A stretch of 64,000 nt of DNA, from the NCBI GenBank assembly GCA_001821765.1, contig MHOA01000006.1, positions 4,389 through 68,388 on the forward strand. Reading direction: 5' to 3'. The DNA comes from Candidatus Ryanbacteria bacterium RIFCSPLOWO2_12_FULL_44_26. Its GTDB lineage: Bacteria; Patescibacteriota; Minisyncoccia; Ryanbacterales; HO2-45-13. The translations under genes were made by a program, and so were the position numbers. Under the pieces are notes generated by a model. The model searched no databases. It was not told the DNA's origin and saw nothing but the letters and a program-made list of their open reading frames with translations. Below, piece after piece: positions 1,773 to 51,277 of the stretch (positions within the stretch are counted from its first letter, which is position 1; the number at the start of each line of letters is the position of its first letter).

Positions 1773-1788
1773 CAACGCGCAACAATGC

Positions 1789-3969
1789 ATGAAAAAAAAA
1801 GTATTTGAAACAATCATTGGGGGTGAAAAGCTGATCGCTGAATTCTCTCCGCTCGCCACGCAAACAAACGGATCGGTGCTTGTACGACACGGCGAAACAG
1901 TGGTGCTCGCAAACACGGTGATGTCAAAAAAACCAAACGAGGACGCGACGTATTTCCCGCTTAAGGTAGATTACGAGGAACGAATGTATGCGGCGGGACG
2001 CATACCGGGATCTCGCTTTTTAAGAAGAGAGGCGCGCCCTTCGGAGGAGGCAATACTTGTTTCTCGGTTTATCGACCGTTCCATAAGACCGTTGTTTGAT
2101 CAACGGATGCGTTATGATATTCAAGTGGTGGTGATGACGCTCTCGGTGGACAAAAAAAATGATCCCGATATGGCCGCAATGTTTGGAGCGACTCTTGCGC
2201 TTGCTGCTTCAGATATTCCGTGGGGGGGGCCGGTGGGAACGGTGCGCGTCGCTAAAAACGGACAAGGGTTTATCATAAACCCCACATATGAAGAGCGCGA
2301 AACCGCTGACTATGAACTTATTGTGTCCGGGAAAGAAAACAAGATCAACATGATAGAAGGAAAATCCAAGGGCGCAACGGAAAGAACAATGCTTGACGGA
2401 ATTGAGCACGCCAGCAGGGAAATCGGCAAACTCGTGGAGTTTCAAAAACACATCGTTTCAGAGATCGGGAAGGAAAAACAGATCCCGCAAATCCATAAAA
2501 TACCAAAAGAACTGGAAAGTCTTTTTACAAAAACGATCACACCGCGCGTTGAAGAAATATTTGCCGAGCCGCGCGATAAAAAAATATTCTACGAGCTTGT
2601 TGAAGATATACGAAGCGAATGGGAAAAGGGGGCTTTAACGGCGTTTCCTGACACACCCAACGATGTCATCTCCGATATGTTTGAAAGTGCGCTGGATAAA
2701 ACAACACACAACACCATACTGCAAAAGCGCAAACGCCCAGATGGACGAGCAACTGATGAAATACGTACGATCTACGCCGAGGCGGGAATACTGCCGCGCA
2801 CGCACGGATCGGGGCTTTTCTTCCGCGGAGATACGCACATCCTCTCTGTGGCAACGCTCGGTTCGCCCTCAGACGAACAGCTGATAGACACTATTGGGGT
2901 GAAAACCAGTAAGCGTTTTATGCATCATTATAACTTTCCACCCTTCTCGGTCGGAGAAATTAAAGCAATGCATGGCCCGGGAAGACGCGAAATAGGCCAC
3001 GGAGTGCTGGCGGAAAAAGCGCTTGAAACCGTTATTCCCTCAAAGGAAAGTTTCCCCTATGCCATTCGTATCGTTTCTGAAACGCTTTCTTCCAACGGCT
3101 CCTCGTCTATGGGTTCGGTTTGCGCCGGATCATTGGCGCTTATGGACGCCGGCATCCCGATATCAGAACCGGTGGCCGGCGTTGCAATGGGGCTTGTAAT
3201 GAACACAAAAGGAGAACATTGTGTTTTAACTGACATCCAAGGGCCGGAAGACCACTATGGAGACATGGATTGTAAAATTGCCGGAACCCGCAATCATGTA
3301 ACAGCGATGCAAATGGACGTAAAGATAGAAGGTGTTGCGATTGAGATTCTTGAAGAAACGTTTATTCAAGCAAAACATGCCCGTGAAACCATTCTCGATG
3401 ATATGCTAAAAGCCCTGCCGGCTCCAAGAGAAACGCTCTCACCGCATGCTCCGCGAATACTCAAGGTGGTTATTAATGTTGATAAGATTGGAGACGTCAT
3501 CGGCCCGGGAGGAAAAACAATCAACAGGATCGTTGAGGAAACCGGGGCGAAAATTGATATTGAGCAAGACGGAACAATATATGTTTTTTCAGAAAAAAAA
3601 GAATCGGCGGAGAAAGCGGCAGAAAAAATACGACAACTGACGCGGGAGTTTTCTGCGGGAGAAGTCTGCGAAGGCAAAGTAACACGCATCTTTCAGTTCG
3701 GAGCAATGGTTGAAATCGGACCCAATAGAGAAGGGCTTGTACATATTTCGGAGCTCGCCCCGTACAGGGTAGAAAAAGTAACCGATATTGTAAACATTGG
3801 CGATGCCGTTACGGTAAAAGTGATCGGGATTGATGAGTTGGGAAGGATCAACCTTTCCATAAAAGCGTTAAACAGCCCGGCCAATAAAAACGAAAACCGT
3901 TTTCACAAGGATAATAAAACTCATGTTGCGGGATCCAGAGAAAAATCAAGACGAGAGTTCTCAAAATAA
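1789..3969 (+). CDS. pnp: Polyribonucleotide nucleotidyltransferase (PNPase)
   Basis: 726 aa with two RNase PH-like domains, a FSVGE motif, and KH (VIGPGGKTINRI) and S1 (GKVTRIFQFGAMVEI) C-terminal domains. Confidence 0.95.
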   Translation: MKKKVFETIIGGEKLIAEFSPLATQTNGSVLVRHGETVVLANTVMSKKPNEDATYFPLKVDYEERMYAAGRIPGSRFLRREARPSEEAILVSRFIDRSIRPLFDQRMRYDIQVVVMTLSVDKKNDPDMAAMFGATLALAASDIPWGGPVGTVRVAKNGQGFIINPTYEERETADYELIVSGKENKINMIEGKSKGATERTMLDGIEHASREIGKLVEFQKHIVSEIGKEKQIPQIHKIPKELESLFTKTITPRVEEIFAEPRDKKIFYELVEDIRSEWEKGALTAFPDTPNDVISDMFESALDKTTHNTILQKRKRPDGRATDEIRTIYAEAGILPRTHGSGLFFRGDTHILSVATLGSPSDEQLIDTIGVKTSKRFMHHYNFPPFSVGEIKAMHGPGRREIGHGVLAEKALETVIPSKESFPYAIRIVSETLSSNGSSSMGSVCAGSLALMDAGIPISEPVAGVAMGLVMNTKGEHCVLTDIQGPEDHYGDMDCKIAGTRNHVTAMQMDVKIEGVAIEILEETFIQAKHARETILDDMLKALPAPRETLSPHAPRILKVVINVDKIGDVIGPGGKTINRIVEETGAKIDIEQDGTIYVFSEKKESAEKAAEKIRQLTREFSAGEVCEGKVTRIFQFGAMVEIGPNREGLVHISELAPYRVEKVTDIVNIGDAVTVKVIGIDELGRINLSIKALNSPANKNENRFHKDNKTHVAGSREKSRREFSK

Positions 3970-4828
3970 ACCAAAAGGTAAAAAAAGACCTCTATCAGTC
4001 CATACATTGAGAACGGACGCAGCGGAACTCCTGCAGAAAAAAGACGTTTCCCTTATAGACATGATTGCGAGGGAGCAAGAGCGCCGGAGCGAAAAAGCCG
4101 AGTTTGCCAAGCCTTATCAACAGGCAAGGGCGGTTTCCAAAACGGTCATCATATATTCGGCAGTTGCGGTGTTGATCATTATTGGTGCGATTGTGTTAAC
4201 GGTTTCCCTCAAACGAGACGACGGAGCGCTGACAGAACCGGACATCCCAAAACCGTTCCTTGTAGTAAATACGCAAACCGTGCTCTCTGCCAGGCAAAAC
4301 GATCCGACAGAAGTAACAGAAAAAATAAATACCCTCAAGAGAGACCGCCTGCCGGTTGGGGAAGTGAGGTATATACCGATAAAAATTGAACAGTTTGGGC
4401 TGGGATCAAGATTTGCAACGGCAGAAGAATTTTTTGAACTGGCCGGACTAAGTCCGCCGCAGCGCTTTATTGAAAGCGCAAGAGGCAGGTGGAATCTTTA
4501 CCTTTATTATGGGCGCAACGATGAAGACGTTGTATTTGTTTTTGAGACCAACGAGCATGCCGGGGCGCTTGCGGGATTGCTTGCATGGGAGCCGCGACTT
4601 CCTTTTGATTTTATCCGTTTTAGCTCGGCAGCGACTTCGCCAACATCATTCTTCTTTCAAGATAAAGTAATAAAGAACATTGATGCCCGCGTTGTATTTT
4701 CGCAGAAAGAAGGGGAAACACATCCCGCGTATGCTATCTTCGCTAATAAATTTGTCATACTGGCCGGCTCCGAAAATGCGCTTGAAAATATATTAAAACG
4801 GTTTATAGCTGGCCCAATCCGCGCCTAG
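3923..4828 (+). CDS. Hypothetical membrane-anchored protein (start uncertain; overlaps pnp 3' end)
   Basis: 301 aa ORF with a single predicted TM (VIIYSAVAVLIIIGAIVLTV). No recognisable domain. Confidence 0.4.
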   Translation: MLRDPEKNQDESSQNKPKGKKRPLSVHTLRTDAAELLQKKDVSLIDMIAREQERRSEKAEFAKPYQQARAVSKTVIIYSAVAVLIIIGAIVLTVSLKRDDGALTEPDIPKPFLVVNTQTVLSARQNDPTEVTEKINTLKRDRLPVGEVRYIPIKIEQFGLGSRFATAEEFFELAGLSPPQRFIESARGRWNLYLYYGRNDEDVVFVFETNEHAGALAGLLAWEPRLPFDFIRFSSAATSPTSFFFQDKVIKNIDARVVFSQKEGETHPAYAIFANKFVILAGSENALENILKRFIAGPIRA

Positions 4829-4913
4829 TATTGACCGAAAAGAACCAAAGCTGCCTTCAAAAAACACATGTTATACAAACACAATACATCACAAGCATGT
4901 CTTGGGGAACTGA

Positions 4914-5288
4914 TTGAGATATAATAATACTATGAAAAACGTTGAGGAATTTAAAAAACAACTCGAAAACGAAAAGCGCGAACTGGAGAAAACGCTGGGT
5001 TCAATAGGACACAAAACGAAGGTCGGCGGAAAAGAAGATTGGGTTCCCTCATACCCCGATCTTAACCCGATGCAATCGGATAAAAGCGAGATGGCGGATG
5101 AAGTTGAGGAATTTGAAAACCGCATCGGCATTGAGGGCAAGCTCGAGGAGCGCTTAGACGACATACATGCGGCCTTAAAACGCATTGAAGACGGAACGTA
5201 CGGGATATGCGAGGAAGGAGGAGAACAAATAGAACCCGAACGGCTCCGAGCAAATCCCGCTGCCCGCACCTGCATTCAGCACGCATAA
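4914..5288 (+). CDS. DksA/TraR-family protein with degenerate zinc finger
   Basis: 124 aa. C-terminus YGICEEGGEQIEPERLRANPAARTCIQHA aligns to the DksA/TraR CxxC-x17-CxxC region but keeps only 2 of 4 Cys. N-terminal coiled-coil-like region. Confidence 0.55.
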   Translation: MRYNNTMKNVEEFKKQLENEKRELEKTLGSIGHKTKVGGKEDWVPSYPDLNPMQSDKSEMADEVEEFENRIGIEGKLEERLDDIHAALKRIEDGTYGICEEGGEQIEPERLRANPAARTCIQHA

Positions 5289-5385
5289 AATTGCTGGTTT
5301 ATCTTTTGTTATGGAGACTTTGCCTTCTACGATCTTGCAAACTACAGATTTTTGACTTTAGACGTTAGATTATTACACTGATGCT

Positions 5386-6927
5386 ATGGCCGTAAGCATA
5401 AAATCAGGGCAGGTGGTTGGCCTTGAAGGGGTGCCTATAGATGTAGAGGTTGATTTATCCCAAGGACTGCACCGATACTCACTGGTGGGGCTTCCGGACA
5501 AAGCTGTTGACGAAGCGCGGGAACGTATTTCTGCAGCTATAAAAAACTCCGGGCTTAGGCCGCCACACAAAAAGAACCAGCGCGTAACGATTAACCTTGC
5601 CCCTGCGGATTTAAGAAAAGAGGGTCCGCTTTTTGATCTTCCCATCGCCTTAGCGTATGTCCTTGCCTCCAAACAAGCTGCTTTTGTTGCGGACAAAAAA
5701 ATGTTTATAGGGGAACTGGCGCTCGACGGAACACTAAGAAGAGCGCGCGGCGTACTCCCCCTTGCCATAGCGGCGGAACGAATGGGAGTAGAGGAGCTTT
5801 TTGTTCCGAAAGGAAACGGAAAAGAAGCGGCGTTTGTATCCAATATACAGGTGGTGGAAGCGACGTGTTTAAGCGACGTGCTAGATCATCTCGAGGGGCG
5901 TGTTGTCATACCACCGCTCCCCCAAACTCGCTTTCAACCGGAATCAAAAATACTGGAATACGGATTTGAAGACATTAAAGGACAGGAGAGCGCCAAACGA
6001 GCGGCAGAAATAGCTGCTGCAGGCGCACACCATATAGCGCTGTCAGGTCCTCCGGGAACCGGGAAAACCTTGCTGGCAAGGGCAATGCCATCAATCCTTC
6101 CTCCCATTTCATTTACAGAAGCGTTAGAGGTAACCGCAATCTATAGCGTTGCCGGCAAAGAGGAAAAGGCGTTGTCATCTGGGGGACTTGTCAACATTCG
6201 CCCCTTTCGCGCGCCGCACCACACCGCTTCCTACGCCGCGCTTGTGGGCGGGGGACACGTTCCGCGGCCGGGAGAGATAACGCTCGCGCACCGCGGCGTG
6301 CTTTTCTTAGATGAATTTCCCGAGTTTGAAAACAGAAGTATTGAGGCGCTTCGCGAGCCGCTGGAAGAGGGGGTTATTTCAATATCGCGCGTCAAAAGCT
6401 CAACCGCGTTTCCCGCAAGAATTCTGCTTGTTGCGGCAATGAACCTGTGTCCCTGCGGAAACAGAGGAACCGGAAAGGACTGTGTTTGCAGTGCCCGACA
6501 TTTAGCGCGGTATGCGAAACGCATCTCCGGCCCCATCATTGACCGCATTGATCTTTGGGCACAGGTGCCGCACCTAGACCACAAAAAACTGGAAAGCGCT
6601 GAAAAAACCGAAACATCCCAAACGGTCCAAAAACGAGTACATAGCGCCCGTATGATCCAGTCAGAACGATTCAGCAAAACCGTCCCAAACACCAATAGCG
6701 AGATCGGGGTGAGAGAAATAAAAACATATTGTCCGCTGTCTTTGCCTTGTAAAACACTGCTTCAAAACGCGGCCAGCAACCTCCAACTCTCCGCGCGTTC
6801 ATACCACCGCATGATAAAGGTCGCTCGCACCATCGCCGATCTTGAAAACTCCGGTGAAATAAAAGAAGCGCATCTTCTTGAAGCGCTCCAATATAGACCC
6901 CGATTGGATGAGTTGGCCTACGGTTAA
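5386..6927 (+). CDS. comM: YifB/ComM-family Mg-chelatase-like AAA+ ATPase
   Basis: 513 aa. N-terminal Lon-like domain (GLEGVPIDVEVDLSQGLHRYSLVGLPD), Walker A GPPGTGKT, C-terminal ChlI-like region. Confidence 0.9.
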   Translation: MAVSIKSGQVVGLEGVPIDVEVDLSQGLHRYSLVGLPDKAVDEARERISAAIKNSGLRPPHKKNQRVTINLAPADLRKEGPLFDLPIALAYVLASKQAAFVADKKMFIGELALDGTLRRARGVLPLAIAAERMGVEELFVPKGNGKEAAFVSNIQVVEATCLSDVLDHLEGRVVIPPLPQTRFQPESKILEYGFEDIKGQESAKRAAEIAAAGAHHIALSGPPGTGKTLLARAMPSILPPISFTEALEVTAIYSVAGKEEKALSSGGLVNIRPFRAPHHTASYAALVGGGHVPRPGEITLAHRGVLFLDEFPEFENRSIEALREPLEEGVISISRVKSSTAFPARILLVAAMNLCPCGNRGTGKDCVCSARHLARYAKRISGPIIDRIDLWAQVPHLDHKKLESAEKTETSQTVQKRVHSARMIQSERFSKTVPNTNSEIGVREIKTYCPLSLPCKTLLQNAASNLQLSARSYHRMIKVARTIADLENSGEIKEAHLLEALQYRPRLDELAYG

Positions 6928-6966
6928 TGCTCCACGCATCCCAACAACAGAATGTTTGACGTTAGA

Positions 6967-8070
6967 CTAAAACGGATTTCTTGCCCCGCGGACCTCAAAA
7001 TGTACATGGCAGCCGGTTGACCTCCCTGATGTCCCAACAGTCCCTATCTGCTGACCTTTCAGCACAAACCATCCGGGCGCCGCATAGACGGACTGCATAT
7101 GGCTATAGACCGTTTGCGTTCCGTTGGGGTGAGCGATCGCCACATATCTTCCGTATCCTCCGTTCCACCCAGAACTCCGTGCGGTAATAACGTTTCCGGA
7201 CGCAGAAGCGTACAGCGGCGCGCCGCACGAGGTTGCAAGGTCAACAGCGTTAAATCCGTGAAGCCCGTATGTCTTTCTGCCCCCGCTAATGGGGCGCATA
7301 AAGTAACCATCAATAAGTGATCCTTCGCTTTCAACCACGTAGTGCGCGCCGGATGCCTGTGGAATCCTTAAATCAACATTCGGGATAATAATATCCTGTC
7401 CTGCTTTAATATCCTCAGCGGAAACAAGCTCGTTAAAAATTAAAATCTCGCTTTCGTCCGCTTCATACTTATTCGCAATTGACCCAATGGTCTCTCCCTC
7501 CTTCACTGTATGCTTGACGCCGGTCACGGGGAGAATGACCAAAACATCTCCCGGACGGATCAAGTCCGCACGTTTTAAGTTGTTTGCCCAAAATATCGTT
7601 CCAATGCTTACATCAAAGGTGTCCGCGATAACAGACAGGTTATCGCCTTCGCGCACCGTATAGGTTGTAATATTAGATGACCGTATCCCGTCCGCATCGG
7701 CAACATTCCCGAGCGGCCCGACAACAGGCAACAGGGCGTTACCCCCGGCATACTGAAGCAACGCTCCCCCGACTCCGGTTGCCAGCTTTTCATTGTTTGC
7801 CGGATCTAAAAAGGGCCCTTGCCCTATATCAGAAAAGGCTGCGGCATAAGAAGCGGTCTTCACCAACGCATCAGAGCGGGAAAAGATGTTTTTTACAAAA
7901 TCACCAAAGCTAAAGGCGCTTGCGAGCGACGGCAACATCAAAAAAAGGACAAACAGCCCCGTAGCACCCACCTTTGTTCTTCCCAGCATCGGACGATCGG
8001 CTCCGTTATTCAGTTTTCGGTTTGTACCAATAGGTAAAATTTCCTCTTTAGTAACCTTTCCTTCGACCAA
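6967..8070 (-). CDS. Secreted LysM-domain M23 family metallopeptidase
   Basis: 367 aa. Two LysM repeats (YTVREGDNLSVIA..., HTVKEGETIGSIA...) and an M23 catalytic region (GYGRYVAIAHPNGTQTVYSHM...GTSGRSTGCHVHFEVR). Confidence 0.85.
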   Translation of the reverse strand: MVEGKVTKEEILPIGTNRKLNNGADRPMLGRTKVGATGLFVLFLMLPSLASAFSFGDFVKNIFSRSDALVKTASYAAAFSDIGQGPFLDPANNEKLATGVGGALLQYAGGNALLPVVGPLGNVADADGIRSSNITTYTVREGDNLSVIADTFDVSIGTIFWANNLKRADLIRPGDVLVILPVTGVKHTVKEGETIGSIANKYEADESEILIFNELVSAEDIKAGQDIIIPNVDLRIPQASGAHYVVESEGSLIDGYFMRPISGGRKTYGLHGFNAVDLATSCGAPLYASASGNVITARSSGWNGGYGRYVAIAHPNGTQTVYSHMQSVYAAPGWFVLKGQQIGTVGTSGRSTGCHVHFEVRGARNPF

Positions 8071-8193
8071 ACCGTCCCTTATAAAGGTATATATGGAACG
8101 GTGGTGTTATCTTTTCAATTCCGGCTACGTCATATATGGTAGCAGAAAACAGGCCGATGTTCAACAAACCTGTGGAGAGTAAAAATCGTTACT

Positions 8194-10164
8194 ATGCAAC
8201 ACTTTTCAGACATCCTTTCTGGCTTAAATGAGCGCCAAAAAGAAGCGGTTCTTACAACCGAGGGCCCGCTGTTGGTGCTGGCTGGCGCCGGATCGGGCAA
8301 AACAAAGGTTATCGCCCACCGCATTGCCCAAATCATTCAAAGGGGCGCCAGCCCTAAGCGCATTCTTGCGATCACCTTCACAAACAAAGCGGCGGAGGAG
8401 ATGAAAATCCGAATTGCCCAACTGCTCCTGGCGGACGGCAAAAGCGGGAGCGCCGCGAGCCGCAAATCTCCATCTCCAGACTCCATGCCGTTTGTGGGAA
8501 CGTTCCACGCGCTCGGGGTTCAAATTCTAAAAAGGCACGGCTCGCGGATGCTTATTCCGCAAAACTTCACCATTCTTGACGAGAGCGACACAAAGCAGGT
8601 ATGCAAAGAACTGGGGGAGGAGCTTGCACTTGACACAGACACATACGATACAGAACGCCTCCGCGCTTCTATATCAAGATTAAAAAACGAACTGATCAGT
8701 GCCGCTGATTTTGCACGCGAAAGCGCTCAAGAAGATGAACGTGCGTATGAAGCTATCCTGTCAAAAATGTACAGCGCCTACGAAGCTCGACTTTTTAAAA
8801 CAGGAAGCCTTGATTTTGATGACCTTTTAATAAAAACGGTGTTTCTTTTAGAAACGCAAAAAGACGTTCTGGGATATTGGCAAAAACAGTGGGACTATAT
8901 TCATATTGACGAATACCAAGACACCAACAAGGCGCAGTATGCTGTATCACTGCTGCTTGCGCGGGAACATAAAAACATTGCGGTTGTCGGGGACATCGAT
9001 CAGGCCATTTATTCGTGGCGCGGGGGAGACACCAGAAACATTTCCTATTTTGAGCGCGACTTTCCCAACGCCCGCGTCATTGCGCTTGAAGACAACTACC
9101 GCTCAACAAAAATAATTCTTGAAGCGGCACATAATGTTATCGTACATAATGCGCAAAGAAAAAACATCACACTTAGAACCAAAAACCCAGACGGCGAACG
9201 CATAACGATAAGAGTCTTGGAAAACGAAAAGAAAGAAGCGGAAACGATTGTACAAGACATCGGCGCTTTACAACAAAGCGGCGTTCCTTTCAGCGACATC
9301 GCTGTGCTTTTTAGAACAAACGCTCAATCGCGCGCGATTGAGGAAGCATTCGTTCAATCAGCCGTCCCGTACAAACTGGTGGCGGGGGTTCGTTTTTATG
9401 AACGAAAAGAAATAAAGGATGTTCTTTCTTATATAAGATATATCGCAAACAAAAAAGATACACTCGCCCTCAAAAGGATCATCAATACGCCCCTAAGAGG
9501 AATAGGGGCGGTGCTTGCGGCAAAGTATGTTGCCCAAAAACCCTTAAAAGACAATGAAAAAGCAAGGATTGGGCAATTTGAGAACATGATAAAAGACATC
9601 AGCGACGTCGCTAAAACAAAAAAAATCCGCGAACTCCTAAAATATGTTATTTTAAGGGCCGGTTTTAAAAAGCACCACTCCAAAACAGACGACGGGAAAG
9701 ACCGCATTAAAAACATTGAAGAACTCATCACTGTTGCAGATAAGTTTGAGGGTCTTACGCCAAAAGAAAGCATGGAAAAATTTTTAGAAGAAGCCGCGCT
9801 TATGAGCGAACAAGACCTCATCGCACAAGGGAGCGAAAAGGTGCACCTCCTCACCGCACACGCGGCGAAGGGGCTTGAATTTAGAGTTGTGATCATTGCC
9901 GGCATGGAAGAAGGTCTTTTCCCTCATGTGCTTTCCCAAGAAGAAGGAAGAACAGAAGAAGAGCGAAGACTTTTTTATGTGGCTCTTACCAGAGCAAAAG
10001 AAAAAGTGGTCATTACCCTTACCACAAGAAGAATGTTGTGGGGAGAGCTGCTGTTTAACGACCCTTCACGATTCTTAAGAGAAATCCCCCAACATCTCAC
10101 CACTATCAACGAATACAAGGAAGCGTTAGAAGAGGAGTCCGGGGAAACGATACATTATTCATGA
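8194..10164 (+). CDS. pcrA: ATP-dependent DNA helicase, UvrD/PcrA/Rep family
   Basis: 656 aa. Walker A GAGSGKTKVIAHR plus UvrD motifs (TFTNKAAEEM, VDEYQDTN, GDIDQAIYSWRGG, LEDNYRST). Confidence 0.9.
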   Translation: MQHFSDILSGLNERQKEAVLTTEGPLLVLAGAGSGKTKVIAHRIAQIIQRGASPKRILAITFTNKAAEEMKIRIAQLLLADGKSGSAASRKSPSPDSMPFVGTFHALGVQILKRHGSRMLIPQNFTILDESDTKQVCKELGEELALDTDTYDTERLRASISRLKNELISAADFARESAQEDERAYEAILSKMYSAYEARLFKTGSLDFDDLLIKTVFLLETQKDVLGYWQKQWDYIHIDEYQDTNKAQYAVSLLLAREHKNIAVVGDIDQAIYSWRGGDTRNISYFERDFPNARVIALEDNYRSTKIILEAAHNVIVHNAQRKNITLRTKNPDGERITIRVLENEKKEAETIVQDIGALQQSGVPFSDIAVLFRTNAQSRAIEEAFVQSAVPYKLVAGVRFYERKEIKDVLSYIRYIANKKDTLALKRIINTPLRGIGAVLAAKYVAQKPLKDNEKARIGQFENMIKDISDVAKTKKIRELLKYVILRAGFKKHHSKTDDGKDRIKNIEELITVADKFEGLTPKESMEKFLEEAALMSEQDLIAQGSEKVHLLTAHAAKGLEFRVVIIAGMEEGLFPHVLSQEEGRTEEERRLFYVALTRAKEKVVITLTTRRMLWGELLFNDPSRFLREIPQHLTTINEYKEALEEESGETIHYS

Positions 10165-10254
10165 CGAAACATTTTCACTTTAATTGCCTATGTTTGTTTG
10201 GTTATTGTTTCTCACTGTTGATTATTTTTTCAGTTTCATGACCAGTCGCCGCTT

Positions 10255-11112
10255 ATGCAATATATGTCCGTAAAAAAACACAAACACTCCGCTCATCGGC
10301 TCAATCCAAACATTTTCATGGGGCAGCATTTTTTAACCGCACCAGCCGTTCTTCGCAACATCATCGCTGCGGCGAAATTGACAAAAAAAGATACGGTCAT
10401 TGAGATAGGGCCGGGCAAAGGCATTTTAACAGAGGCGCTTATGGGGAGGGTAAAAAAAGTTATTGCGATAGAAAAAGACAAGCGCCTTGTTGCATATCTA
10501 AAAGATGCATTTAAAAACGAAAAAAATGTTGACATTATTGAGGGAGACATTTTAGAAATCGCCTCTCATCCGCATTCCGTCATACACCCCGCACTACAAG
10601 AAACATATAAAATAGTCGCGAATCTGCCCTACTACATCACCTCGCGGTTTTTGCGGGTTTTTCTTTCTCCAAAAACCTTCGCTCCCCCAATCTCCATGAC
10701 GCTTCTGGTCCAAAAAGAGGTGGCCGAACGCATTGTTTTAAGGCACCGAGGCAAGGAAAAAATGAGCCTTTTGGGGCTTTCTGTCGGGGCATACGGCAGT
10801 CCGAACATCATCGCTTCGGTAAAGCCGTCCGCCTTCAAGCCCGCTCCAAAGGTTCACTCGGCTATTTTGTCCATTGAACACATATCCGATGCATTTTTTA
10901 AAAAACACCGCATAGACCCGCAAATATTTTTCTTCATCGCAAAGCAGGCCTTTTCCAAAAAAAGAAAGATGCTCAAATCTTCTCTTGGCATAAAAAATCC
11001 TGCGTACTGCAAAAAGCGGCCGGAGGAGCTTTCTTTGGACGAGTGGGCGATTTTAACGCGAGAGATACTGCACAATGAACAAAAAACAAACAATACGCCG
11101 GATTTTTCTTAA
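10255..11112 (+). CDS. ksgA: 16S rRNA (adenine1518/1519-N6)-dimethyltransferase
   Basis: GQHFL...IEIGPGKGILTE ... ANLPYYITS motifs of the RsmA/KsgA family. Confidence 0.85.
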   Translation: MQYMSVKKHKHSAHRLNPNIFMGQHFLTAPAVLRNIIAAAKLTKKDTVIEIGPGKGILTEALMGRVKKVIAIEKDKRLVAYLKDAFKNEKNVDIIEGDILEIASHPHSVIHPALQETYKIVANLPYYITSRFLRVFLSPKTFAPPISMTLLVQKEVAERIVLRHRGKEKMSLLGLSVGAYGSPNIIASVKPSAFKPAPKVHSAILSIEHISDAFFKKHRIDPQIFFFIAKQAFSKKRKMLKSSLGIKNPAYCKKRPEELSLDEWAILTREILHNEQKTNNTPDFS

Positions 11113-11151
11113 AAAAACTATCCAGTGGTTGTATACAATTTAATCCGCGCG

Positions 11152-11160
11152 TTATCCACA
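11152..11160 (+). promoter_or_regulatory. Perfect DnaA-box consensus TTATCCACA in the ksgA-downstream intergenic region
   Basis: Exact 9-mer read in the sequence. An extended -10-like TGaTATAAT lies about 35 nt downstream (11192-11200). A single box, so functional significance is uncertain. Confidence 0.3.
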
Positions 11161-11257
11161 TACATTCAAACGCTCTGAATGCGAATTTTGCTGATATAAT
11201 AAGGAAAGCGGAGCACTCCGGGTTATTATCAACAGACAACCGGGAGACCGCGGTGTT

Positions 11258-12214
11258 TTGGGTTACCTATCAATTAAAAAAGCCTTCGCAATTGTTCTTA
11301 GTCTCGCTTTGGCGGGGGGAATTTCCTTTTTTTATTTTGACCTGAAGGAAAAATTCCCCAAAAGTGCAAAAGAAGGCGGCATATCAAAACCAAAGATCAC
11401 CGCGCGCACAGGAAACGGTTTGCCCGTATCTTTGGAGAACGGGAGGGGCTGGCGGGAACTGCTTGAAGAGATCCGGTTAAATATTCCGCTTGGAGATCAA
11501 AAAAAACCACCGGATACACCAGTCCTCTTATACGACGAAAACACATTGACAGGAAAGCTGGCCCAGGCAACGGCGGAGCGCTATTTTGAGTTAAAAAAAC
11601 TCTCTCCAAACCTCCCCACATCGGTCATAAACCAAAAAGGGTTTTCCAAAGAAATCGCGGAAGAAATCACGGCGCTCTATCTTGCCAATGGAGCAAACCC
11701 CTATGCCCCAAACAGCATAGCGGTCATAAAAAATGCCGATGTGAACGATCGTCGCCGGTATCTAAACGCGCTCGCGTACGTGCTCAAAACAAACTTCCCC
11801 GCCGGCAATAAGAACAACAGCAATGCCGCAGAAGAGGTGCCGAAAGAAATATTAATCATTCTTTCTACGCTCAAGACAAAACAGTATGAAACTCTTTCCG
11901 ACTTAGATCCGTATATCGCCCATTATGTAAACGCCGCTAAAGGATTTATATCAATACCGGTGCCCGGGGACTACGTTCAGTTTCACCTGCGCCTTAGCAA
12001 TTCTTTCGCAAACGTTGCCTACGCGCTTCAGTCCATGCAGAAATCCGGAAGCGATCCGGTCACGGCCGTTATGGGAAGAAATCTGTATTCAACAGAGATT
12101 AACGCTTCTCGTATTCTTATGACGTACTTAAAGCTGCAAATAGAAAAAAACGAGTTTGTTTTTTCTGCAGAAGAAGACGGGCATTATTTTTACCAATATA
12201 TTAACAAGATTTAA
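11258..12214 (+). CDS. Hypothetical N-terminally membrane-anchored protein
   Basis: 318 aa. N-terminal TM (FAIVLSLALAGGISFFYF). No recognisable domain. Confidence 0.4.
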   Translation: MGYLSIKKAFAIVLSLALAGGISFFYFDLKEKFPKSAKEGGISKPKITARTGNGLPVSLENGRGWRELLEEIRLNIPLGDQKKPPDTPVLLYDENTLTGKLAQATAERYFELKKLSPNLPTSVINQKGFSKEIAEEITALYLANGANPYAPNSIAVIKNADVNDRRRYLNALAYVLKTNFPAGNKNNSNAAEEVPKEILIILSTLKTKQYETLSDLDPYIAHYVNAAKGFISIPVPGDYVQFHLRLSNSFANVAYALQSMQKSGSDPVTAVMGRNLYSTEINASRILMTYLKLQIEKNEFVFSAEEDGHYFYQYINKI

Positions 12215-12222
12215 TTGCGGCC

Positions 12223-13443
12223 ATGACAGTCTTTAAAAACAATGTTATGCAACGACACCATAGAGGCGCTTTGGCGATGCTGCTTTTGCCCGGATGTATG
12301 TTATTTATCCCAAGCTACGCCTTCGCGCAACTGCAGGTGCCGGTATGGGATGAAGCGTTAAGCGGCACATTTGACGGTGATTTTGCATGGTTTAAAAGAA
12401 GTTTTGGCAGAGATCCTTATAGTCCAAATAGCTTTCGGGAAGATTTCAATGAAACGTTTGACCAAGGAGGCCTCCTAGAGGCTCCCATTTCCCTCATAGA
12501 AACAGGGCTCGCTGACTTTGGTGGCGGGTGGTTTTATGACGCCTGGATGGCGACGTTCGGGCCGTATGGGTGGTTTACGCAAAAAGAAGTGGGGACCAAG
12601 GGCTACTATGAAATACTCGGCAGCGGACAGACACTTATAGATTCATGGGATTCAATAGGGTTCTATCAGGAAAAGGACTTATTGAGCGAGGTGTCCAGAA
12701 CAATAACGGCGTTTCTTCTGGAAAGCCGCTACTCGCTGGAAGGCGGCGGCGGAGTGGCAGAGCCGCTCTTTGTCACCTTCACGCCGGACTATATGGACGC
12801 CGAAACGGACAACACCGCGGGTGTGTTTCTCGGAGATCAGTCGCTTACAAACGTATGCGAACCGTTTACGGAAAGTGTGCGAATCGCATTGGCATATCAA
12901 AAAAATAAAGAACAGATTACCTTTAACGAAAAGGCGGACTGCACAAACTTTAATCTGGAAACCTATTACGACAGTTTTCTTGGCGGCGGAGGATGGGATA
13001 CGTGGACGGATTCTTTTGATCCGCAAAACAACTTTTATGGATCGCTGATCATTGCGGAAAGCGAATTTATAGAAAGGGAAAACATCACCAATGCGGAACT
13101 AACCACAGAGCTTATCGGCGGGCAAGGAGTGCTTGACCTTCAGGTGTGTGTGGAAGCGATTACAGAAGACGGTTTTCCGTGTAGCGCCTACCCGGACGAC
13201 GGGTGTTTCTGCAAGACATTTGTCACCCGTACACACGCAAAGTCGGTTCAACAGCTCTTTACGCCTGTTCAGGATGCAAATCTTGAAGTCCGTGGGGATT
13301 CAGACGAACTGACAGAAGACGCGGTGGACGCAATCCTTAGCGCAATTGTCCCGTACGAGAGATATGACAATTTCTATGAGGGTTTCTACCAAGAAACAAT
13401 AAATGGCCTGTGGAGAGACGGCGCACAATGGTATCTTCCTTAA
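12223..13443 (+). CDS. Hypothetical secreted protein
   Basis: 406 aa. Signal-peptide-like N-terminus (ALAMLLLPGCMLFIPSYAFAQ). Acidic, with Trp/Gly-rich GGGG motifs. No recognisable domain. Confidence 0.4.
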   Translation: MTVFKNNVMQRHHRGALAMLLLPGCMLFIPSYAFAQLQVPVWDEALSGTFDGDFAWFKRSFGRDPYSPNSFREDFNETFDQGGLLEAPISLIETGLADFGGGWFYDAWMATFGPYGWFTQKEVGTKGYYEILGSGQTLIDSWDSIGFYQEKDLLSEVSRTITAFLLESRYSLEGGGGVAEPLFVTFTPDYMDAETDNTAGVFLGDQSLTNVCEPFTESVRIALAYQKNKEQITFNEKADCTNFNLETYYDSFLGGGGWDTWTDSFDPQNNFYGSLIIAESEFIERENITNAELTTELIGGQGVLDLQVCVEAITEDGFPCSAYPDDGCFCKTFVTRTHAKSVQQLFTPVQDANLEVRGDSDELTEDAVDAILSAIVPYERYDNFYEGFYQETINGLWRDGAQWYLP

Positions 13444-49118: not shown

Positions 49119-49173
49119 GCTGTTGGTTCTGCATCTGGCGTCAATTACGAAAAGGTGTATAATATAGCAAGGT

Positions 49174-49977
49174 ATGAGTAAAGAAGTGGTTTTTGATTTG
49201 GAAACCGAAAAATCATTTGATGAAGTTGGCGGGCGCGGCAACGTGCATCTTTTGGGGGTTACGGTGGTCGGCGTCTATGATTACAACTCCGATACATATC
49301 GCGTTTTTGAGAAGGAAGATTTTAAGGCGCTTGCCGATTTTTTTAAGGGAGCAAGCAGAATTATAGGGTTTAATGTTCGGGCGTTTGATGTGCCTGTGCT
49401 TGCTCCGCATGTGGATTTTAATGTTTTTACGCTTCCCTTGCTTGATCTTATGGATGACGTTGAAAAATCCGCTGGGTTTAGGGTTTCTCTTGATAATCTT
49501 TCCAAAGCAACAATCGGGTCCTGCAAAAGCGGCCACGGGCTGGATGCTATTCAGTGGTGGAGAGAGGGCAGAAAAGATGAGGTGAAGAAATATTGCTTAC
49601 AGGATGTTCGATTAACGCGCGATTTATATGAGTTTGGCAAAAAAGAAGGATATGTGTTTTTTGAGTCCCGAACGACAGGCGCTAGGTCCAAACTGCCCGT
49701 TTCTTGGAAGCCAGCGGCGGCGGAGGATGTTTTAAGCGTTTTGCAAAACGGATTTCTGAAACGAAAAACTGTTGCTATAAGCTACCTATCCGCAGCCGGC
49801 GCTTCTTCAACCGAGCGGCTCGTTGATATTTATGCTATAAATCAAAGAACGTTTGAAGGGTATTGCCACTTACGTTCAGCGCGGAGAATCTTTACTATAG
49901 ACGGCGTAACAAGCGCCAAGATTACTGATAATACGTATAAAATTCAGGAAGATGTCCAACAACGACTCATCTCATAA
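49174..49977 (+). CDS. DEDDy-type 3'-5' exonuclease (PolB-exo/YprB-like RNase H fold) fused to a C-terminal WYL-like domain
   Basis: 267 aa. Exo I VVFDLETE, Exo II IIGFNVRAFDVPVL, Exo III YCLQDVRLTRDLY. C-terminal 90 aa (KTVAISYLSAAGASSTERLVDIYAINQRTFEGYCHLRSARRIFTIDGV) follows the WYL-domain pattern (v.i.Y...R.v.P..l...wyL.ayC.lR...R.Frl.RI) with EGY in place of WYL. Overlaps the next gene by 26 nt. Confidence 0.6.
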   Translation: MSKEVVFDLETEKSFDEVGGRGNVHLLGVTVVGVYDYNSDTYRVFEKEDFKALADFFKGASRIIGFNVRAFDVPVLAPHVDFNVFTLPLLDLMDDVEKSAGFRVSLDNLSKATIGSCKSGHGLDAIQWWREGRKDEVKKYCLQDVRLTRDLYEFGKKEGYVFFESRTTGARSKLPVSWKPAAAEDVLSVLQNGFLKRKTVAISYLSAAGASSTERLVDIYAINQRTFEGYCHLRSARRIFTIDGVTSAKITDNTYKIQEDVQQRLIS

Positions 49978-50470
49978 TGCTGTTTTTTACAACTCTAAAG
50001 GAACAGTGTTCACTCTTGATAATCTTTGTTCTGCGGTAAGGGACTACATTGTGCTCCATCCAAACGATTCGTACGAGATTGTCGTTGGCACCGATTCGCG
50101 CACTTCCGCCAATCACGCGCTGTTTGTAACTTCGCTTGTCGTAAGAAGGGTCGGCAATGGAGGGATATTTTTTTACACGCGCTTTAAAGAAAAGAAGGAA
50201 TATACCATTCGCGAGCGCATCTGGAAAGAAACCATGGTTTCCATTACACTGGCGCAGGAGATACGAAGCCGCATGAAAGAATCTCTCGGAGAGGAAATAT
50301 TCTGGAATAAGCAAATTCAGTTTCATCATATTCATCTTGATGTCGGCGTGAAAGGACCCACACGCGAGCTGGTGGACGGTGTAACCGGCGTGGTGAAAGG
50401 GTTTGGCTTTGTGCCGGTTATTAAGCCGGACTCCTACGGCGCGTTTGTGGTTGCTGATTTGTATACATGA
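49952..50470 (+). CDS. DUF458 / YkuK-family RNase H-like protein
   Basis: 172 aa. IVVGTDSRTSANHALFVTSLVVRRVGNGGIFFYTRF...RERIW...HIHLDVGVKGPTRELVDGVTGVVKGFGFVPVIKPDSYGAFVVAD closely follows the conserved blocks of B. subtilis YkuK (IVGTDSQ...HRVGKGG.YFY...RERLY...EIHLDVG..G.T.EL......GMV.G.GF....KPE.YAA..VAD), as recalled from memory. Confidence 0.7.
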   Translation: MSNNDSSHNAVFYNSKGTVFTLDNLCSAVRDYIVLHPNDSYEIVVGTDSRTSANHALFVTSLVVRRVGNGGIFFYTRFKEKKEYTIRERIWKETMVSITLAQEIRSRMKESLGEEIFWNKQIQFHHIHLDVGVKGPTRELVDGVTGVVKGFGFVPVIKPDSYGAFVVADLYT

Positions 50471-50627
50471 ATGTTTTTTATTCTTTCTTTGCAATCCTGA
50501 CGTTTCTTTCATAATTTAAAATAAGAAAGTCGGGATCCCAATCTTGCGTCGGGATGTAATAGTCCCGGCACCACACAGGACGCAGGGCAAACAAAACGCT
50601 GGCTCTTTTGCCCCGCACCAGCCCTGT

Positions 50628-50699
50628 GCCCCCATAGCTCAACGGATAGAGTACGGGTTTCCGGAACCCGGGATCGAGGTTCAATTCCTCGTGGGGGTA
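50628..50699 (+). tRNA. tRNA-Arg (anticodon CCG), CCA not encoded
   Basis: Manual cloverleaf: acceptor GCCCCCA/TGGGGGT, D-arm GCTC-AACGGATA-GAGT, anticodon arm CGGGT-TTCCGGA-ACCCG (U33, CCG, G37), T-arm CGAGG-TTCAATT-CCTCG, discriminator A. Coordinates approximate. Confidence 0.8.
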
Positions 50700-50764
50700 T
50701 AGGCATGGTGCGGGGCGGCACTTAAGAGATATGAATCGAGCTCTCTTAAGGCGTTTACTATAAT

Positions 50765-51277
50765 TTGCCCATACAAACAACAATGAAAATAACCCCGATC
50801 AAACAAAAAGATGATTCCGCTTGCGGCCCAACCAGTATCCAGATGGTGCTGGCATACTTTGGATTTTCTTATACATTTGAAATGATCGCAAAAATTTCAC
50901 AGTACAAGAAAAAGGATGGTCTTTCCAATAAAGATCTTGTTAAAACGCTGCGAGTATTACATTTTACCGTTCAAGAAAAAGCAAACGCGACATGGGCTGA
51001 TCTTACGCGATACAATACGGCTGATAAGGCTATCATCGTGTCATGGATGATGTTCGGATATATTGGACACTTTAGTGTTGTTGAAAAAGTTGATAAAAAA
51101 TATATCACCTTGGCAAATCCACACGATGGCAAGCATGCCAAGATGGAGAAAATGGCATTCATGCGCCTCTGGATGGATTATGACGACATGTGGTACCCGA
51201 TAAAAAATACTGACATTCAGCTGCGTTGGATGTGTATTATCTCAAAGAAAGGTAAGAAAAAAGCCCGAGGCAGGTGA
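50765..51277 (+). CDS. Standalone C39-like (papain-fold) cysteine peptidase domain protein
   Basis: 170 aa, TTG start. DDSACGPTSIQMVLAYFG (catalytic Cys context of peptidase C39 / C39_2) and a downstream HFSVV His. No ABC transporter adjacent. Confidence 0.5.
   Translation: MPIQTTMKITPIKQKDDSACGPTSIQMVLAYFGFSYTFEMIAKISQYKKKDGLSNKDLVKTLRVLHFTVQEKANATWADLTRYNTADKAIIVSWMMFGYIGHFSVVEKVDKKYITLANPHDGKHAKMEKMAFMRLWMDYDDMWYPIKNTDIQLRWMCIISKKGKKKARGR

What the first reader, a model, noticed from the sequence alone, without database searches (positions are those of the whole stretch)
49174..50470. Translationally coupled pair: DEDDy 3'-5' exonuclease-WYL fusion plus DUF458/YkuK RNase H-like protein, a candidate ligand-regulated nuclease module
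The first gene combines an intact DEDDy exonuclease (all three Exo motifs incl. Y-x3-D) with a C-terminal domain matching the WYL ligand-sensing fold. WYL domains are recurrent regulatory or sensor modules in prokaryotic defence systems (CRISPR accessory proteins, BREX/PIF1-associated). The second gene, overlapping by 26 nt, is a YkuK/DUF458 RNase H-like protein of unknown function. Two predicted nucleases under one WYL sensor domain, next to several tRNA genes, suggest a defence, tRNA/RNA-processing or nucleic-acid surveillance module. I am not aware of this two-gene combination being characterised.
Basis: partly seen in the sequence, partly recalled or inferred. Interest (0 to 1): 0.75.

Follow-up and report, generated by a model that had tools for sequence, protein, structure and literature searches.

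The report
Conserved exonuclease–YkuK nuclease operon in Parcubacteria
Two overlapping nuclease genes in this candidate-phyla-radiation bacterium form a conserved operon found across many relatives, and the evidence points to routine DNA repair or replication work (the first enzyme probably docks on the DNA sliding clamp) rather than to a ligand-switched anti-phage system.

Summary
ORF1 (49174-49977, 267 aa) is an intact DEDDy 3'-5' exonuclease with a real WYL domain. ORF2 (49952-50470, 172 aa) is a DUF458/YkuK RNase H-like protein. They overlap by 26 nt. The pairing is not chance: 49 of 61 informative metagenome loci have DUF458 directly downstream on the same strand, often with the same dual-coded ATGTCCAA junction.

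The interpretation needs revising.
- The WYL domain is dispensable: it was lost at least four times while the pair was kept.
- The context is syntenic housekeeping (RuvA, SpoU methylase, tRNA-Arg, Hsp20, PrsW, ValRS), and no defence model matches DUF458.
- Almost all homologues end in Q-x-S-L-[F/L/I], a beta-clamp-binding-type motif. It persists without WYL and without DUF458.
- The closest relatives of the exonuclease domain (41-44% identity) are fused to MrfA/YprA DNA-repair helicases.
- The WYL domain is closest to the ssDNA-binding WYLs of Pif1 and PafBC.

Best reading: a housekeeping, probably clamp-tethered, MrfB-like DNA exonuclease co-translated with an RNase H-like nuclease. The role of DUF458, and the conserved tRNA-Arg(CCG) gene immediately downstream, remain unexplained. 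I found no published description of this pair.

The parts
49174..49977 (+). Gene 1: DEDDy 3'-5' exonuclease + WYL domain + C-terminal clamp-binding-type tail (267 aa; NCBI A3C80_04240, annotated 'hypothetical protein')
   Evidence: ORF. Pfam PF13482, PF13280 and PF10108 all above their cut-offs. 100% identical to P0001 from Candidatus Ryanbacteria. AF2 pLDDT 90.7.
49174..49707 (+). Exonuclease domain (res 1-178), DEDDy: D8, E10, N67, D72, Y140, D144
49726..49920 (+). WYL domain (res 185-249), core motif FEGYCHLRSARRIF
49957..49971 (+). C-terminal pentapeptide Q262-Q-R-L-I266 (followed by S267 and the stop codon): a beta-clamp-binding-type motif, QxxL[F/L/I]
   Evidence: 100 of 120 homologues end exactly in Q-x-x-L-[LIFM], and 6 more do so with up to 2 extra residues. 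Kept in WYL-less forms and in loci without DUF458. Background is 1 of about 930 other ORFs. pLDDT is below 50 for residues 261-267. Published consensus is QL[S/D]LF or QxxLF (PMC12309361). Binding itself is inferred, not shown.
49952..50470 (+). Gene 2: DUF458/YkuK RNase H-like nuclease (172 aa; NCBI A3C80_04245, annotated as a shorter 154-aa form)
49952..49977 (+). 26-nt dual-coding overlap. The ATG of gene 2 lies inside the D-V codons just before the Q of gene 1's tail (gATGTCCAA).
   Evidence: The same nATGTCCAA junction, with a 23-nt overlap, occurs in 12 or more divergent loci. Of 62 loci carrying both genes, 26 overlap, 19 have a gap of 0-60 nt, 17 have 61-300 nt and none has more.
50627..50700 (+). 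tRNA-Arg(CCG), a conserved downstream neighbour of the pair on the same strand. Its relation to the pair is unexplained.
   Evidence: ARAGORN. A tRNA lies 4-130 nt downstream of DUF458 in 22 of 39 loci scanned, and it is tRNA-Arg(CCG) in 18 of them. No CCA is encoded.

Best explanation
The two genes are a vertically inherited, housekeeping nuclease operon of Parcubacteria-type Patescibacteria. It most likely acts on DNA during repair or replication.

Gene 1 is an MrfB/PolB-proofreading-like DEDDy 3'-5' exonuclease. Its disordered C-terminal Q-x-S-L-[F/L/I] peptide probably tethers it to the beta sliding clamp. That is the logic of Pol III epsilon and of the mycobacterial non-canonical DnaQ (exonuclease + BRCT + C-terminal clamp-binding motif). 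The WYL domain, where present, most likely holds single-stranded DNA as an accessory substrate-binding or substrate-sensing module, as in Pif1 helicases. It is not essential to the pair.

Gene 2 (YkuK/DUF458) is a catalytically intact RNase H-fold nuclease, made in fixed proportion with gene 1 by translational coupling. My working model is that it makes or processes the entry point (a nick, an RNA-DNA junction or a flap) from which the exonuclease resects 3'-5'.

Shown: the domain identities, the intact active sites, the conserved operon and dual-coded junction, the housekeeping synteny, the conservation of the tail motif, and the homology to helicase-fused repair exonucleases.

Inferred: clamp binding, DNA rather than RNA as substrate, ssDNA binding by the WYL domain, and the division of labour with DUF458.
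For: Operon:
- DUF458 lies immediately downstream on the same strand in 49 of 61 loci and in 3 of 3 reverse look-ups.
- Gaps never exceed 300 nt and 26 of 62 loci overlap. The nATGTCCAA dual-coding junction is conserved.

Housekeeping:
- Neighbours recur across loci: SpoU methylase, alpha/beta hydrolase, RuvA, tRNA-Arg, Hsp20-PrsW-ValRS.
- There are thousands of homologues of both proteins in Patescibacteria.
- The active sites are invariant.

DNA-directed:
- The closest non-stand-alone relatives of the exonuclease domain (41-44% identity over 175 aa, DEDDy kept) are fused to DEAD + Helicase_C + WHD_HRQ1 + MZB helicases of the MrfA/YprA type. [quoted passage not shown]
- MrfB is a 3'-5' DNA exonuclease.
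- The top structural neighbours are DNA polymerase proofreading domains, ExoI and epsilon. The PHROGs match is 'DNA polymerase exonuclease subunit'.

Clamp tether:
- 106 of 120 homologues end in Q-x-x-L-[LIFM] with up to 2 extra residues, and serine dominates the third position. This fits the consensus QL[S/D]LF or QxxLF.
- WYL-less forms keep the tail.
- Distant exonuclease-only forms from Uhrbacteria and Magasanikbacteria end in N-L-[T/S]-[L/M]-[P/G]-[F/L]. That resembles the hexapeptide class, for example QLSLPL.
- The tail is also present where DUF458 is absent. It is disordered in the model. Background is 1 of about 930 ORFs.
- Precedent: the mycobacterial DnaQ has a C-terminal Q[Y/L]ALF that is essential for beta-clamp binding.

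WYL as an ssDNA binder:
- The best profile hits are the Pif1 WYL and PafBC. The arginines implicated in ssDNA binding in Pif1 and DriD are conserved at 234, 238 and 244. CapW, PafBC and DriD bind ssDNA through their WYL domains.
Against: - No biochemical data exist for any member of either family. Clamp binding rests on motif similarity alone. The window protein itself has one extra residue after the motif (QQRLIS) and Ile rather than Phe at the last position.
- A tRNA gene sits 4-130 nt downstream in 22 of 39 loci, and a SpoU-type methylase is a frequent upstream neighbour. That would fit an RNA role.
- No MrfA-like helicase was found in the window or in any fetched locus, so the MrfAB analogy is incomplete.
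Confidence: 0.55

Rival explanations
1. RNA or tRNA processing module. Gene 1 would be an RNase D-like DEDDy exoribonuclease whose Sm/SH3-like WYL domain binds RNA. DUF458 would be an RNase H-like endoribonuclease. Together they would mature or police transcripts such as the tRNA co-transcribed just downstream.
For: - A tRNA (mostly tRNA-Arg CCG) lies 4-130 nt downstream on the same strand in 22 of 39 loci. With gaps of only 4-7 nt in several loci (L091 4, L024 6, L026/L027/L099 7) it must be co-transcribed there.
- A SpoU/TrmL-like methylase is a frequent upstream neighbour.
- Many homologues carry precomputed PF01612 hits.
Against: - PF01612 is below its cut-off for the window protein (12.8 against 23.6), and there is no HRDC domain.
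- 18 of 20 adjacent tRNA genes lack an encoded CCA. By established knowledge that points to RNase Z plus a CCA-adding enzyme rather than exonucleolytic trimming.
- The conserved C-terminal clamp-binding-type motif has no known role in RNA metabolism.
- The nearest relatives of the exonuclease domain are fused to DNA-repair helicases.
- tRNA genes are common synteny anchors, and 15 of 39 loci have no adjacent tRNA.
Confidence: 0.2
2. One reading: a defence or nucleic-acid surveillance module in which the WYL domain senses a ligand (a nucleotide signal or phage-derived nucleic acid) and switches on one or both nucleases.
For: - WYL domains are enriched in defence loci, and the PADLOC CRISPR-associated WYL model matches at E=6.5e-9.
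- Two nucleases in one operon is a common defence architecture.
- YprA-family helicases related to MrfA are central to several defence systems.
- One locus has an Mrr-type restriction gene 3 kb away (L104).
Against: - WYL is absent from many pairs: 12 of 13 short forms keep DUF458, and WYL was lost at least four times.
- The neighbourhood is conserved housekeeping, not a variable island.
- DUF458 has no PADLOC hit.
- The phylogeny is consistent with vertical inheritance: the DUF458 linkage is confined to one clade and the flanks are syntenic.
- The helicase-fused relatives belong to the repair branch of YprA, not the defence branch.
- The characterised WYL relatives bind ssDNA.
Confidence: 0.07
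3. A conserved operon without mechanistic cooperation. The two nucleases would be kept together only by ancestral gene order and overlapping reading frames in very compact genomes, each acting in a separate pathway.
For: - Other neighbours (tRNA-Arg, SpoU methylase, Hsp20-PrsW-ValRS) are also conserved across loci without an obvious functional link, which shows strong microsynteny in these genomes.
- Basal clades of the exonuclease family lack DUF458.
- Four loci inside the linked clade have lost it: L028, L030, L042 and L052.
Against: - The adjacency (80%) is more conserved than any other neighbour.
- It survives gain and loss of the WYL domain and changes of the flanking genes.
- The overlapping start is maintained at the nucleotide level across proteins only about 45-55% identical.
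- No locus has the genes separated by another gene or by more than 300 nt.
Confidence: 0.15

Closest known systems
MrfB/YprB exonuclease of the MrfAB mitomycin-C repair pathway, and MrfA(YprA)-exonuclease fusion proteins
   Same: - Same Pfam family, PF13482.
- The exonuclease domains of DEAD-Helicase_C-WHD_HRQ1-MZB-exonuclease fusion proteins are 41-44% identical to the window's exonuclease domain over about 175 aa and keep DEDDy.
- MrfB is a 3'-5' DNA exonuclease that carries an accessory C-terminal domain.
   Different: - No MrfA-like helicase is fused or adjacent here.
- The accessory domain is WYL, not TPR.
- The stand-alone forms here add a C-terminal clamp-binding-type tail that the helicase fusions lack.
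- They are paired with DUF458, which the one helicase-fusion locus examined is not.
Clamp-tethered proofreading exonucleases: E. coli Pol III epsilon and the mycobacterial non-canonical DnaQ (exonuclease + BRCT + C-terminal Q[Y/L]ALF)
   Different: - DEDDy rather than DEDDh, and no PF00929 hit.
- WYL in place of BRCT or of epsilon's alpha-binding tail.
- Clamp binding is untested here.
WYL domains of Pif1 helicases (TePif1, DdPif1, SsPif1) and of PafBC, DriD and CapW
   Same: - These are the best sequence-profile and fold matches.
- The conserved arginines correspond to the ssDNA-contacting residues.
- As in Pif1, the WYL domain is a dispensable C-terminal add-on to a nucleic-acid enzyme rather than part of a transcription factor.
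   Different: It is fused to an exonuclease, an architecture the founding WYL survey does not mention. There is no HTH or WCX domain. The window protein has Gly at position 244, where 97 of 111 homologues have Arg or Lys.
YkuK/DUF458 (PF04308, COG1978), predicted RNase H1-clade nuclease
   Same: A strong Pfam match, E=1.5e-38. It is a single-domain protein, as described for the family. The conserved D...E...(H-x-)D residues match the RNase H1-like active site with the extra helix-alpha1 Glu noted by Majorek et al. 2014.
   Different: - The family has no known function. B. subtilis ykuK is only known as a Spo0A-dependent gene.
- The conserved coupling to an exonuclease has not been described.
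RNase D (DEDDy exoribonuclease for tRNA 3' maturation)
   Different: No HRDC domain, and PF01612 scores below its cut-off. RNase D has no clamp-binding-type tail. The nearest sequence relatives are DNA-repair proteins.

Membership tests
DEDDy 3'-5' exonuclease (DnaQ-like fold; Pfam PF13482 RNase_H_2 / PF10108) | Exo I (D-x-E), Exo II (N-x2-3-[F/Y]-D) and Exo III (Y-x3-D) motifs | tested here: met
   D8/E10, N67/D72 and Y140/D144 are invariant in 120/120 homologues.
DEDDy 3'-5' exonuclease (DnaQ-like fold; Pfam PF13482 RNase_H_2 / PF10108) | Profile score above the curated cut-off, and the DnaQ-like fold | tested here: met
DEDDy 3'-5' exonuclease (DnaQ-like fold; Pfam PF13482 RNase_H_2 / PF10108) | Metal-dependent 3'-5' exonuclease activity | not testable with these tools
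   Requires an enzyme assay.
MrfAB DNA-repair system | MrfB-type exonuclease homologous to those associated with or fused to the MrfA helicase | tested here: met
   41-44% identity to the exonuclease domains of DEAD-Helicase_C-WHD_HRQ1-MZB fusion proteins.
MrfAB DNA-repair system | Partner MrfA/YprA helicase (DEAD + DUF1998/MZB) fused or adjacent | tested here: not met
   tblastn with the helicase parts finds nothing in the window or in 104 loci. The rest of the genome could not be searched.
WYL domain (PF13280) | Profile score above the cut-off, an SH3/Sm-like fold matching solved WYL domains, and the core motif with conserved Arg | tested here: met
   26.1 bits against 21.8. Fold matches to CapW, PafBC, BrxR and DriD. 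R234 is kept in 100/111 and R238 in 106/111 homologues.
WYL domain (PF13280) | Binds a ligand (ssDNA, RNA or a small molecule) that modulates the fused effector | not testable with these tools
   Inferred only, from the Pif1, DriD, PafBC and CapW precedents.
DUF458/YkuK (PF04308) | Profile match, RNase H-like fold, and conserved D-E-D catalytic residues | tested here: met
Beta-clamp-binding proteins (clamp-binding motif) | A pentapeptide QL[S/D]LF or QxxL[F/L] (or a hexapeptide QLxLxL) in a disordered, usually terminal, segment | tested here: met
   The window protein ends ...DVQQRLIS. 100 of 120 homologues end exactly in QxxL[LIFM]. pLDDT is below 50 for residues 261-267. The consensus is taken from PMC12309361.
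Beta-clamp-binding proteins (clamp-binding motif) | Direct binding to the DnaN hydrophobic cleft | not testable with these tools
It needs AF-multimer, ITC or a pull-down.
Known anti-phage defence systems (PADLOC-DB) | Match to a system-specific protein model, and a defence-island context | tested here: not met
   DUF458 has no hit. ORF1 matches only generic WYL-domain models. The neighbours are RuvA, RarA, SpoU, a hydrolase, tRNAs, Hsp20, PrsW and ValRS.
RNase D family | PF01612 exonuclease domain plus HRDC domain(s) | tested here: not met
   PF01612 scores 12.8 bits against a cut-off of 23.6, and there is no HRDC hit.
Pol III epsilon / DnaQ (PF00929, DEDDh) | DEDDh motif III (H-x4-D) and a PF00929 match | tested here: not met
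   Motif III is Y-x3-D, and there is no PF00929 hit.

The most novel reading that the evidence does not exclude
Parcubacteria carry a lineage-wide, clamp-tethered 'nick-and-resect' or extrinsic-proofreading module. In it YkuK/DUF458 is the endonuclease (RNase H-like, acting on RNA-DNA junctions, ribonucleotides or lesions). An MrfB-like DEDDy exonuclease, docked on the beta clamp and guided by an optional ssDNA-binding WYL domain, removes the 3' strand. The module would partly replace canonical functions such as epsilon proofreading, RNase H or mismatch and excision repair in these reduced genomes. It would give the first function to the DUF458/YkuK family. The tight linkage to tRNA-Arg(CCG) might then reflect co-regulation with growth.
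Probability: 0.3. Interest if true: 0.7.

Novelty: new variant of a known kind. Interest (0 to 1): 0.52.

Why it matters
Patescibacteria make up a large share of bacterial diversity, have tiny genomes, and their DNA-maintenance machinery is almost unexplored. This operon is abundant: there are thousands of non-redundant homologues of each gene. It is under strong purifying selection at both active sites.

If the clamp-binding and DNA-repair reading holds, it defines a new accessory factor of the bacterial replisome or repair toolbox. It extends the MrfB exonuclease family to a helicase-independent context, and gives a second example (after Pif1) of a WYL domain used as an accessory on a nucleic-acid enzyme rather than as a transcriptional sensor. 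It also provides the first testable functional hypothesis for DUF458/YkuK, a family without a function since its 2005 prediction as an RNase H relative.

It is also a caution against reading 'WYL + nuclease' as defence by default.

Tried and rejected
- Sequence searches of the PDB with either single protein found nothing useful. The DUF458 profile also found nothing.
- NCBIfam has no model for either protein.
- PADLOC gave no system-level hit.
- The genome-contig scan with the single protein reached only distant exonuclease-only forms from Uhrbacteria and Magasanikbacteria, which lack DUF458 (0 of 15). On its own this would have wrongly suggested chance adjacency. The metagenome scan with an alignment corrected it.
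- The phage collection gave only weak hits: 'PolB-associated exonuclease' of Brucella phages at 30% identity, and one unannotated huge-phage hit for DUF458.
- The promoter and terminator scan around the pair was no better than shuffled sequence, so no transcript boundaries are claimed.
- The afdb50 fold library was unavailable.
- I considered the tail as a docking peptide for DUF458. I rejected this because the tail is conserved in clades and loci that lack DUF458.
- I considered that the D-V residues before the tail are conserved only because they encode DUF458's ATG. That explains [D/Y/N]-V (all NAT-GTN codons), but not Q, L and [F/L/I], which are also conserved where the genes do not overlap.
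- A PHROGs scan of the neighbours of the distant DUF458 on contig L096 failed because those ORFs contain in-frame stops.
Full report
**1. What is there**

The window comes from a Candidatus Ryanbacteria genome (Patescibacteria/CPR). ORF1 is 100% identical to NCBI protein A3C80_04240, and ORF2 corresponds to A3C80_04245.

ORF1 (49174-49977, +, 267 aa) and ORF2 (49952-50470, +, 172 aa) overlap by 26 nt.

Pfam places ORF1 in three families, all above their curated cut-offs:
- RNase_H_2, PF13482 (res 29-153).
- DNA_pol_B_exo2, PF10108.
- WYL, PF13280 (res 185-249, 26.1 bits against 21.8).

ORF2 matches PF04308 (DUF458/YkuK) at E=1.5e-38.

The exonuclease motifs D8-x-E10, N67...D72 and Y140-x3-D144 are invariant in 120 of 120 homologues. 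In DUF458, D48 and E93 are kept in 145 of 146 homologues and H128 and D130 in 144 of 146. Both enzymes are therefore predicted to be catalytically active.

The AF2 models are confident (pLDDT 90.7 and 85.9).
- The C-terminal half of ORF1 matches the WYL domains of CapW, PafBC, BrxR and DriD.

NCBI's 154-aa version of ORF2 starts too late. Homologues of 171 aa cover the whole 172-aa form, F12 is conserved, and residues 11-20 are modelled confidently.

**2. The pairing is conserved, and how**

A first scan of species-representative genomes reached only distant, exonuclease-only relatives in Uhrbacteria and Magasanikbacteria. None of these 15 had DUF458 within 5 kb.

A metagenome scan with a family alignment gave 80 loci.
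- Of the 61 loci with at least 550 nt downstream of the exonuclease gene, 49 (80%) have DUF458 immediately downstream on the same strand.
- Starting from DUF458 instead, 3 of 3 CPR look-ups have the exonuclease immediately upstream.
- Among 62 loci with both genes, 26 overlap, 19 have gaps of 0-60 nt, 17 have gaps of 61-300 nt and none has more.

In the commonest arrangement DUF458's ATG lies inside the [D/Y/N]-V codons (NAT-GTC) of the exonuclease. This gives a conserved dual-coding string nATGTCCAA and a 23-nt overlap. The window has one extra codon and hence 26 nt. This is good evidence for ancestral translational coupling.

An NJ tree of the exonuclease domain (no support values) shows the DUF458 linkage confined to one large crown clade, with basal clades lacking it. 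Inside that clade, forms with and without WYL are interleaved at four or more positions. WYL-less exonucleases of 191-198 aa keep DUF458 in 12 of 13 loci. The WYL domain is thus an optional accessory and not the organising sensor of the pair.

**3. Context**

The neighbours in the window are RuvA, RarA/MgsA, a SpoU/TrmL-like methylase, an alpha/beta hydrolase, [the pair], tRNA-Arg(CCG), a C39-like peptidase, tRNA-Val, Hsp20, PrsW and ValRS.

Much of this recurs elsewhere:
- SpoU methylase in 12 loci, the hydrolase in 11, and RuvA in 7.
- The downstream block Hsp20-PrsW-ValRS in L068, L072 and L099.

This is vertically inherited housekeeping synteny, not a defence island. PADLOC has no model for DUF458 and matches ORF1 only with generic WYL-domain models.

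**4.

The last residues of ORF1 (...Y-K-I-Q-E-D-V-Q-Q-R-L-I-S) are disordered in the model (pLDDT below 50) yet conserved.
- 100 of 120 homologues end exactly in Q-x-x-L-[L/I/F/M], and 6 more do so with one or two extra residues. Ser dominates the third position.
- WYL-less forms retain the tail directly after the exonuclease domain, for example AQASLF, RQHSLF and YVQPSLI. One has QGMLPLA.
- The distant Uhrbacteria and Magasanikbacteria forms end in N-L-[T/S]-[L/M]-[P/G]-[F/L].
- The tail is present in loci and clades without DUF458, so it is not a docking site for the partner.
- Only 1 of about 930 unrelated ORFs in the same DNA carries such an ending.

The motif matches the bacterial beta-clamp-binding motif. 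The pentapeptide consensus is QL[S/D]LF or QxxLF, positions 1, 4 and 5 are critical, and it is often C-terminal, as in PolC. A hexapeptide class is exemplified by QLSLPL (PMC12309361).

A direct precedent is the mycobacterial non-canonical DnaQ. It has an exonuclease domain, a BRCT domain and a C-terminal Q[Y/L]ALF that is essential for binding DnaN (PMC11348249).

Clamp binding here is an inference from the motif and has not been shown.

**5. Relatives of the exonuclease domain**

An exhaustive profile search found 4534 representatives at 50% identity clustering with E at most 1e-3.

Besides the stand-alone forms, the same domain sits at the C-terminus of proteins of 800-1176 aa. Their architecture is DEAD + Helicase_C + WHD_HRQ1 + MrfA Zn-binding domain + exonuclease, that is, MrfA/YprA helicase fusions.
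- These domains are 41-44% identical to the window's over about 175 aa.
- They keep DEDDy.
- They end right after the domain, without the tail.

One such fusion lies in an ordinary Gram-negative context without DUF458.

MrfB is a 3'-5' DNA exonuclease of mitomycin-C repair. It is DEDDh but has a DEDDy-like fold, and it carries an accessory TPR domain (PMC11194089).

No MrfA-like helicase is present in the window or in any fetched locus.

**6. The WYL domain**

By profile, the closest solved sequences are the C-terminal WYL domains of the thermophile Pif1 helicases (8bns and 8bnv, E about 1e-4) and PafBC.

In Pif1 the WYL domain is a dispensable ssDNA-binding accessory whose arginines contact the backbone (PMC9964779). 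In DriD, PafBC and CapW the WYL domain also binds ssDNA (PMC11662680).

The equivalent arginines are conserved here. R234 is kept in 100 of 111 homologues, R238 in 106 of 111, and position 244 is R or K in 97 of 111, although it is Gly in the window protein.

The founding WYL survey does not mention exonuclease fusions.

**7. Best explanation and rivals**

Taken together, the evidence favours a housekeeping DNA-repair or replication operon (confidence about 0.55). In it, an MrfB/PolB-like 3'-5' exonuclease is probably tethered to the sliding clamp, optionally assisted by an ssDNA-binding WYL domain, and co-translated with an RNase H-fold nuclease.

The division of labour is inferred. DUF458 would create or process the entry point, and the exonuclease would resect from it.

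The main rival is RNA or tRNA processing (about 0.2). It rests on a notable observation. A tRNA gene lies 4-130 nt downstream of DUF458, on the same strand, in 22 of 39 loci scanned, and it is tRNA-Arg(CCG) in 18 of them. A further 8 loci have tRNA-Arg(CCG) 0.7-3.4 kb downstream. With gaps of 4-7 nt in several loci, co-transcription is unavoidable there.

Against this rival:
- There is no HRDC domain, and PF01612 is below its cut-off.
- The clamp-type tail and the helicase fusions have no RNA rationale.

A 'linked only by gene order' model (about 0.15) is disfavoured because the adjacency is more persistent than any other neighbour and the junction is conserved at the nucleotide level.

**8. 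Novelty and score**

Both domain families are known. Clamp-tethered exonucleases and MrfB-type repair exonucleases are known kinds.

What I found no published description of:
- The architecture DEDDy exonuclease + WYL + clamp-binding-type tail.
- The helicase-independent occurrence of an MrfB-like exonuclease.
- Its conserved translational coupling to YkuK/DUF458 across a major bacterial lineage.

I rate it a new variant of a known kind, with interest about 0.5. It is not a startling mechanism. It is an abundant, unstudied module that makes the function of DUF458, and part of CPR genome maintenance, directly testable.

Noticed in passing
window 50627-50700, and loci L017-L104: tRNA-Arg(CCG) directly follows DUF458 on the same strand in 18 of 39 loci scanned. 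tRNA-Lys(CTT) or tRNA-Pro(GGG) takes its place in 4 more. Gaps are as small as 4-7 nt (L091, L024, L026, L027, L099), so the tRNA must be co-transcribed with the nuclease operon there. The gap in the window is 156 nt. Whether this is functional or just gene order is unexplained.
   Followed up: partly
window 49952-50008: The NCBI annotation of the DUF458 gene (A3C80_04245, 154 aa) uses a GTG start at about 50006. Homologue coverage, the conserved F12 and the structure model all support the ATG at 49952 (172 aa). The public annotation therefore hides the overlap with the upstream gene.
   Followed up: yes
window 49951-49959, and 12 or more loci: The dual-coding string nATGTCCAA is conserved at the nucleotide level across proteins only about 45-55% identical. 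It encodes [D/Y/N]-V-Q in the exonuclease frame and M-S-N in the DUF458 frame. The residue before V varies only among amino acids with NAT codons, which is a signature of selection on the embedded start codon.
   Followed up: yes
L096 (ENA ERZ1767599 NODE_17, 172-kb contig), 1-12516: A distant DUF458 branch (about 36% identity) sits on a large contig where all genes are on one strand, have no Pfam hits except two GIY-YIG genes, and at least one called gene contains in-frame stop codons under table 11. This looks like a large phage with a reassigned stop codon. DUF458 also hits one 484-kb 'uncultured phage' record (LR756508.1).
   Followed up: partly
L007, L009, L013, L014: Four MAG records titled 'uncultured Gammaproteobacteria bacterium' (one a 1.0-Mb complete chromosome, OZ246408.1) carry the Uhrbacteria/Magasanikbacteria-type exonuclease. 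They cluster with those CPR sequences in the tree, so their taxonomic labels are probably wrong.
   Followed up: no
L038, L040, L067, L069: A small clade of exonucleases with a WYL domain ends in ...[I/V]P[T/S]A[I/V][A/P]E instead of the clamp-binding-type tail. It also lacks DUF458 downstream (L067 has too little downstream sequence to tell). This may be a paralogue with a different partner or role.
   Followed up: no
window 50765-51277: A stand-alone C39-family peptidase-like gene (170 aa, PF03412 E=2.8e-15) lies between tRNA-Arg and tRNA-Val. It has no counterpart in any of the 104 related loci, so it looks like a lineage-specific insertion next to a tRNA gene.
   Followed up: no
window 49158-49163: A perfect TATAAT hexamer lies 10 nt upstream of the exonuclease ATG, with no recognisable -35 element. 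The consensus scan did not call it. If it is used, the mRNA would be nearly leaderless.
   Followed up: no
L104 8740-9621 and 9661-10263: In one Parcubacteria locus an Mrr-type restriction endonuclease gene and a LexA-like repressor gene lie about 3-4 kb downstream of the pair. This is the only defence-like or SOS-like neighbour seen in any locus.
   Followed up: no
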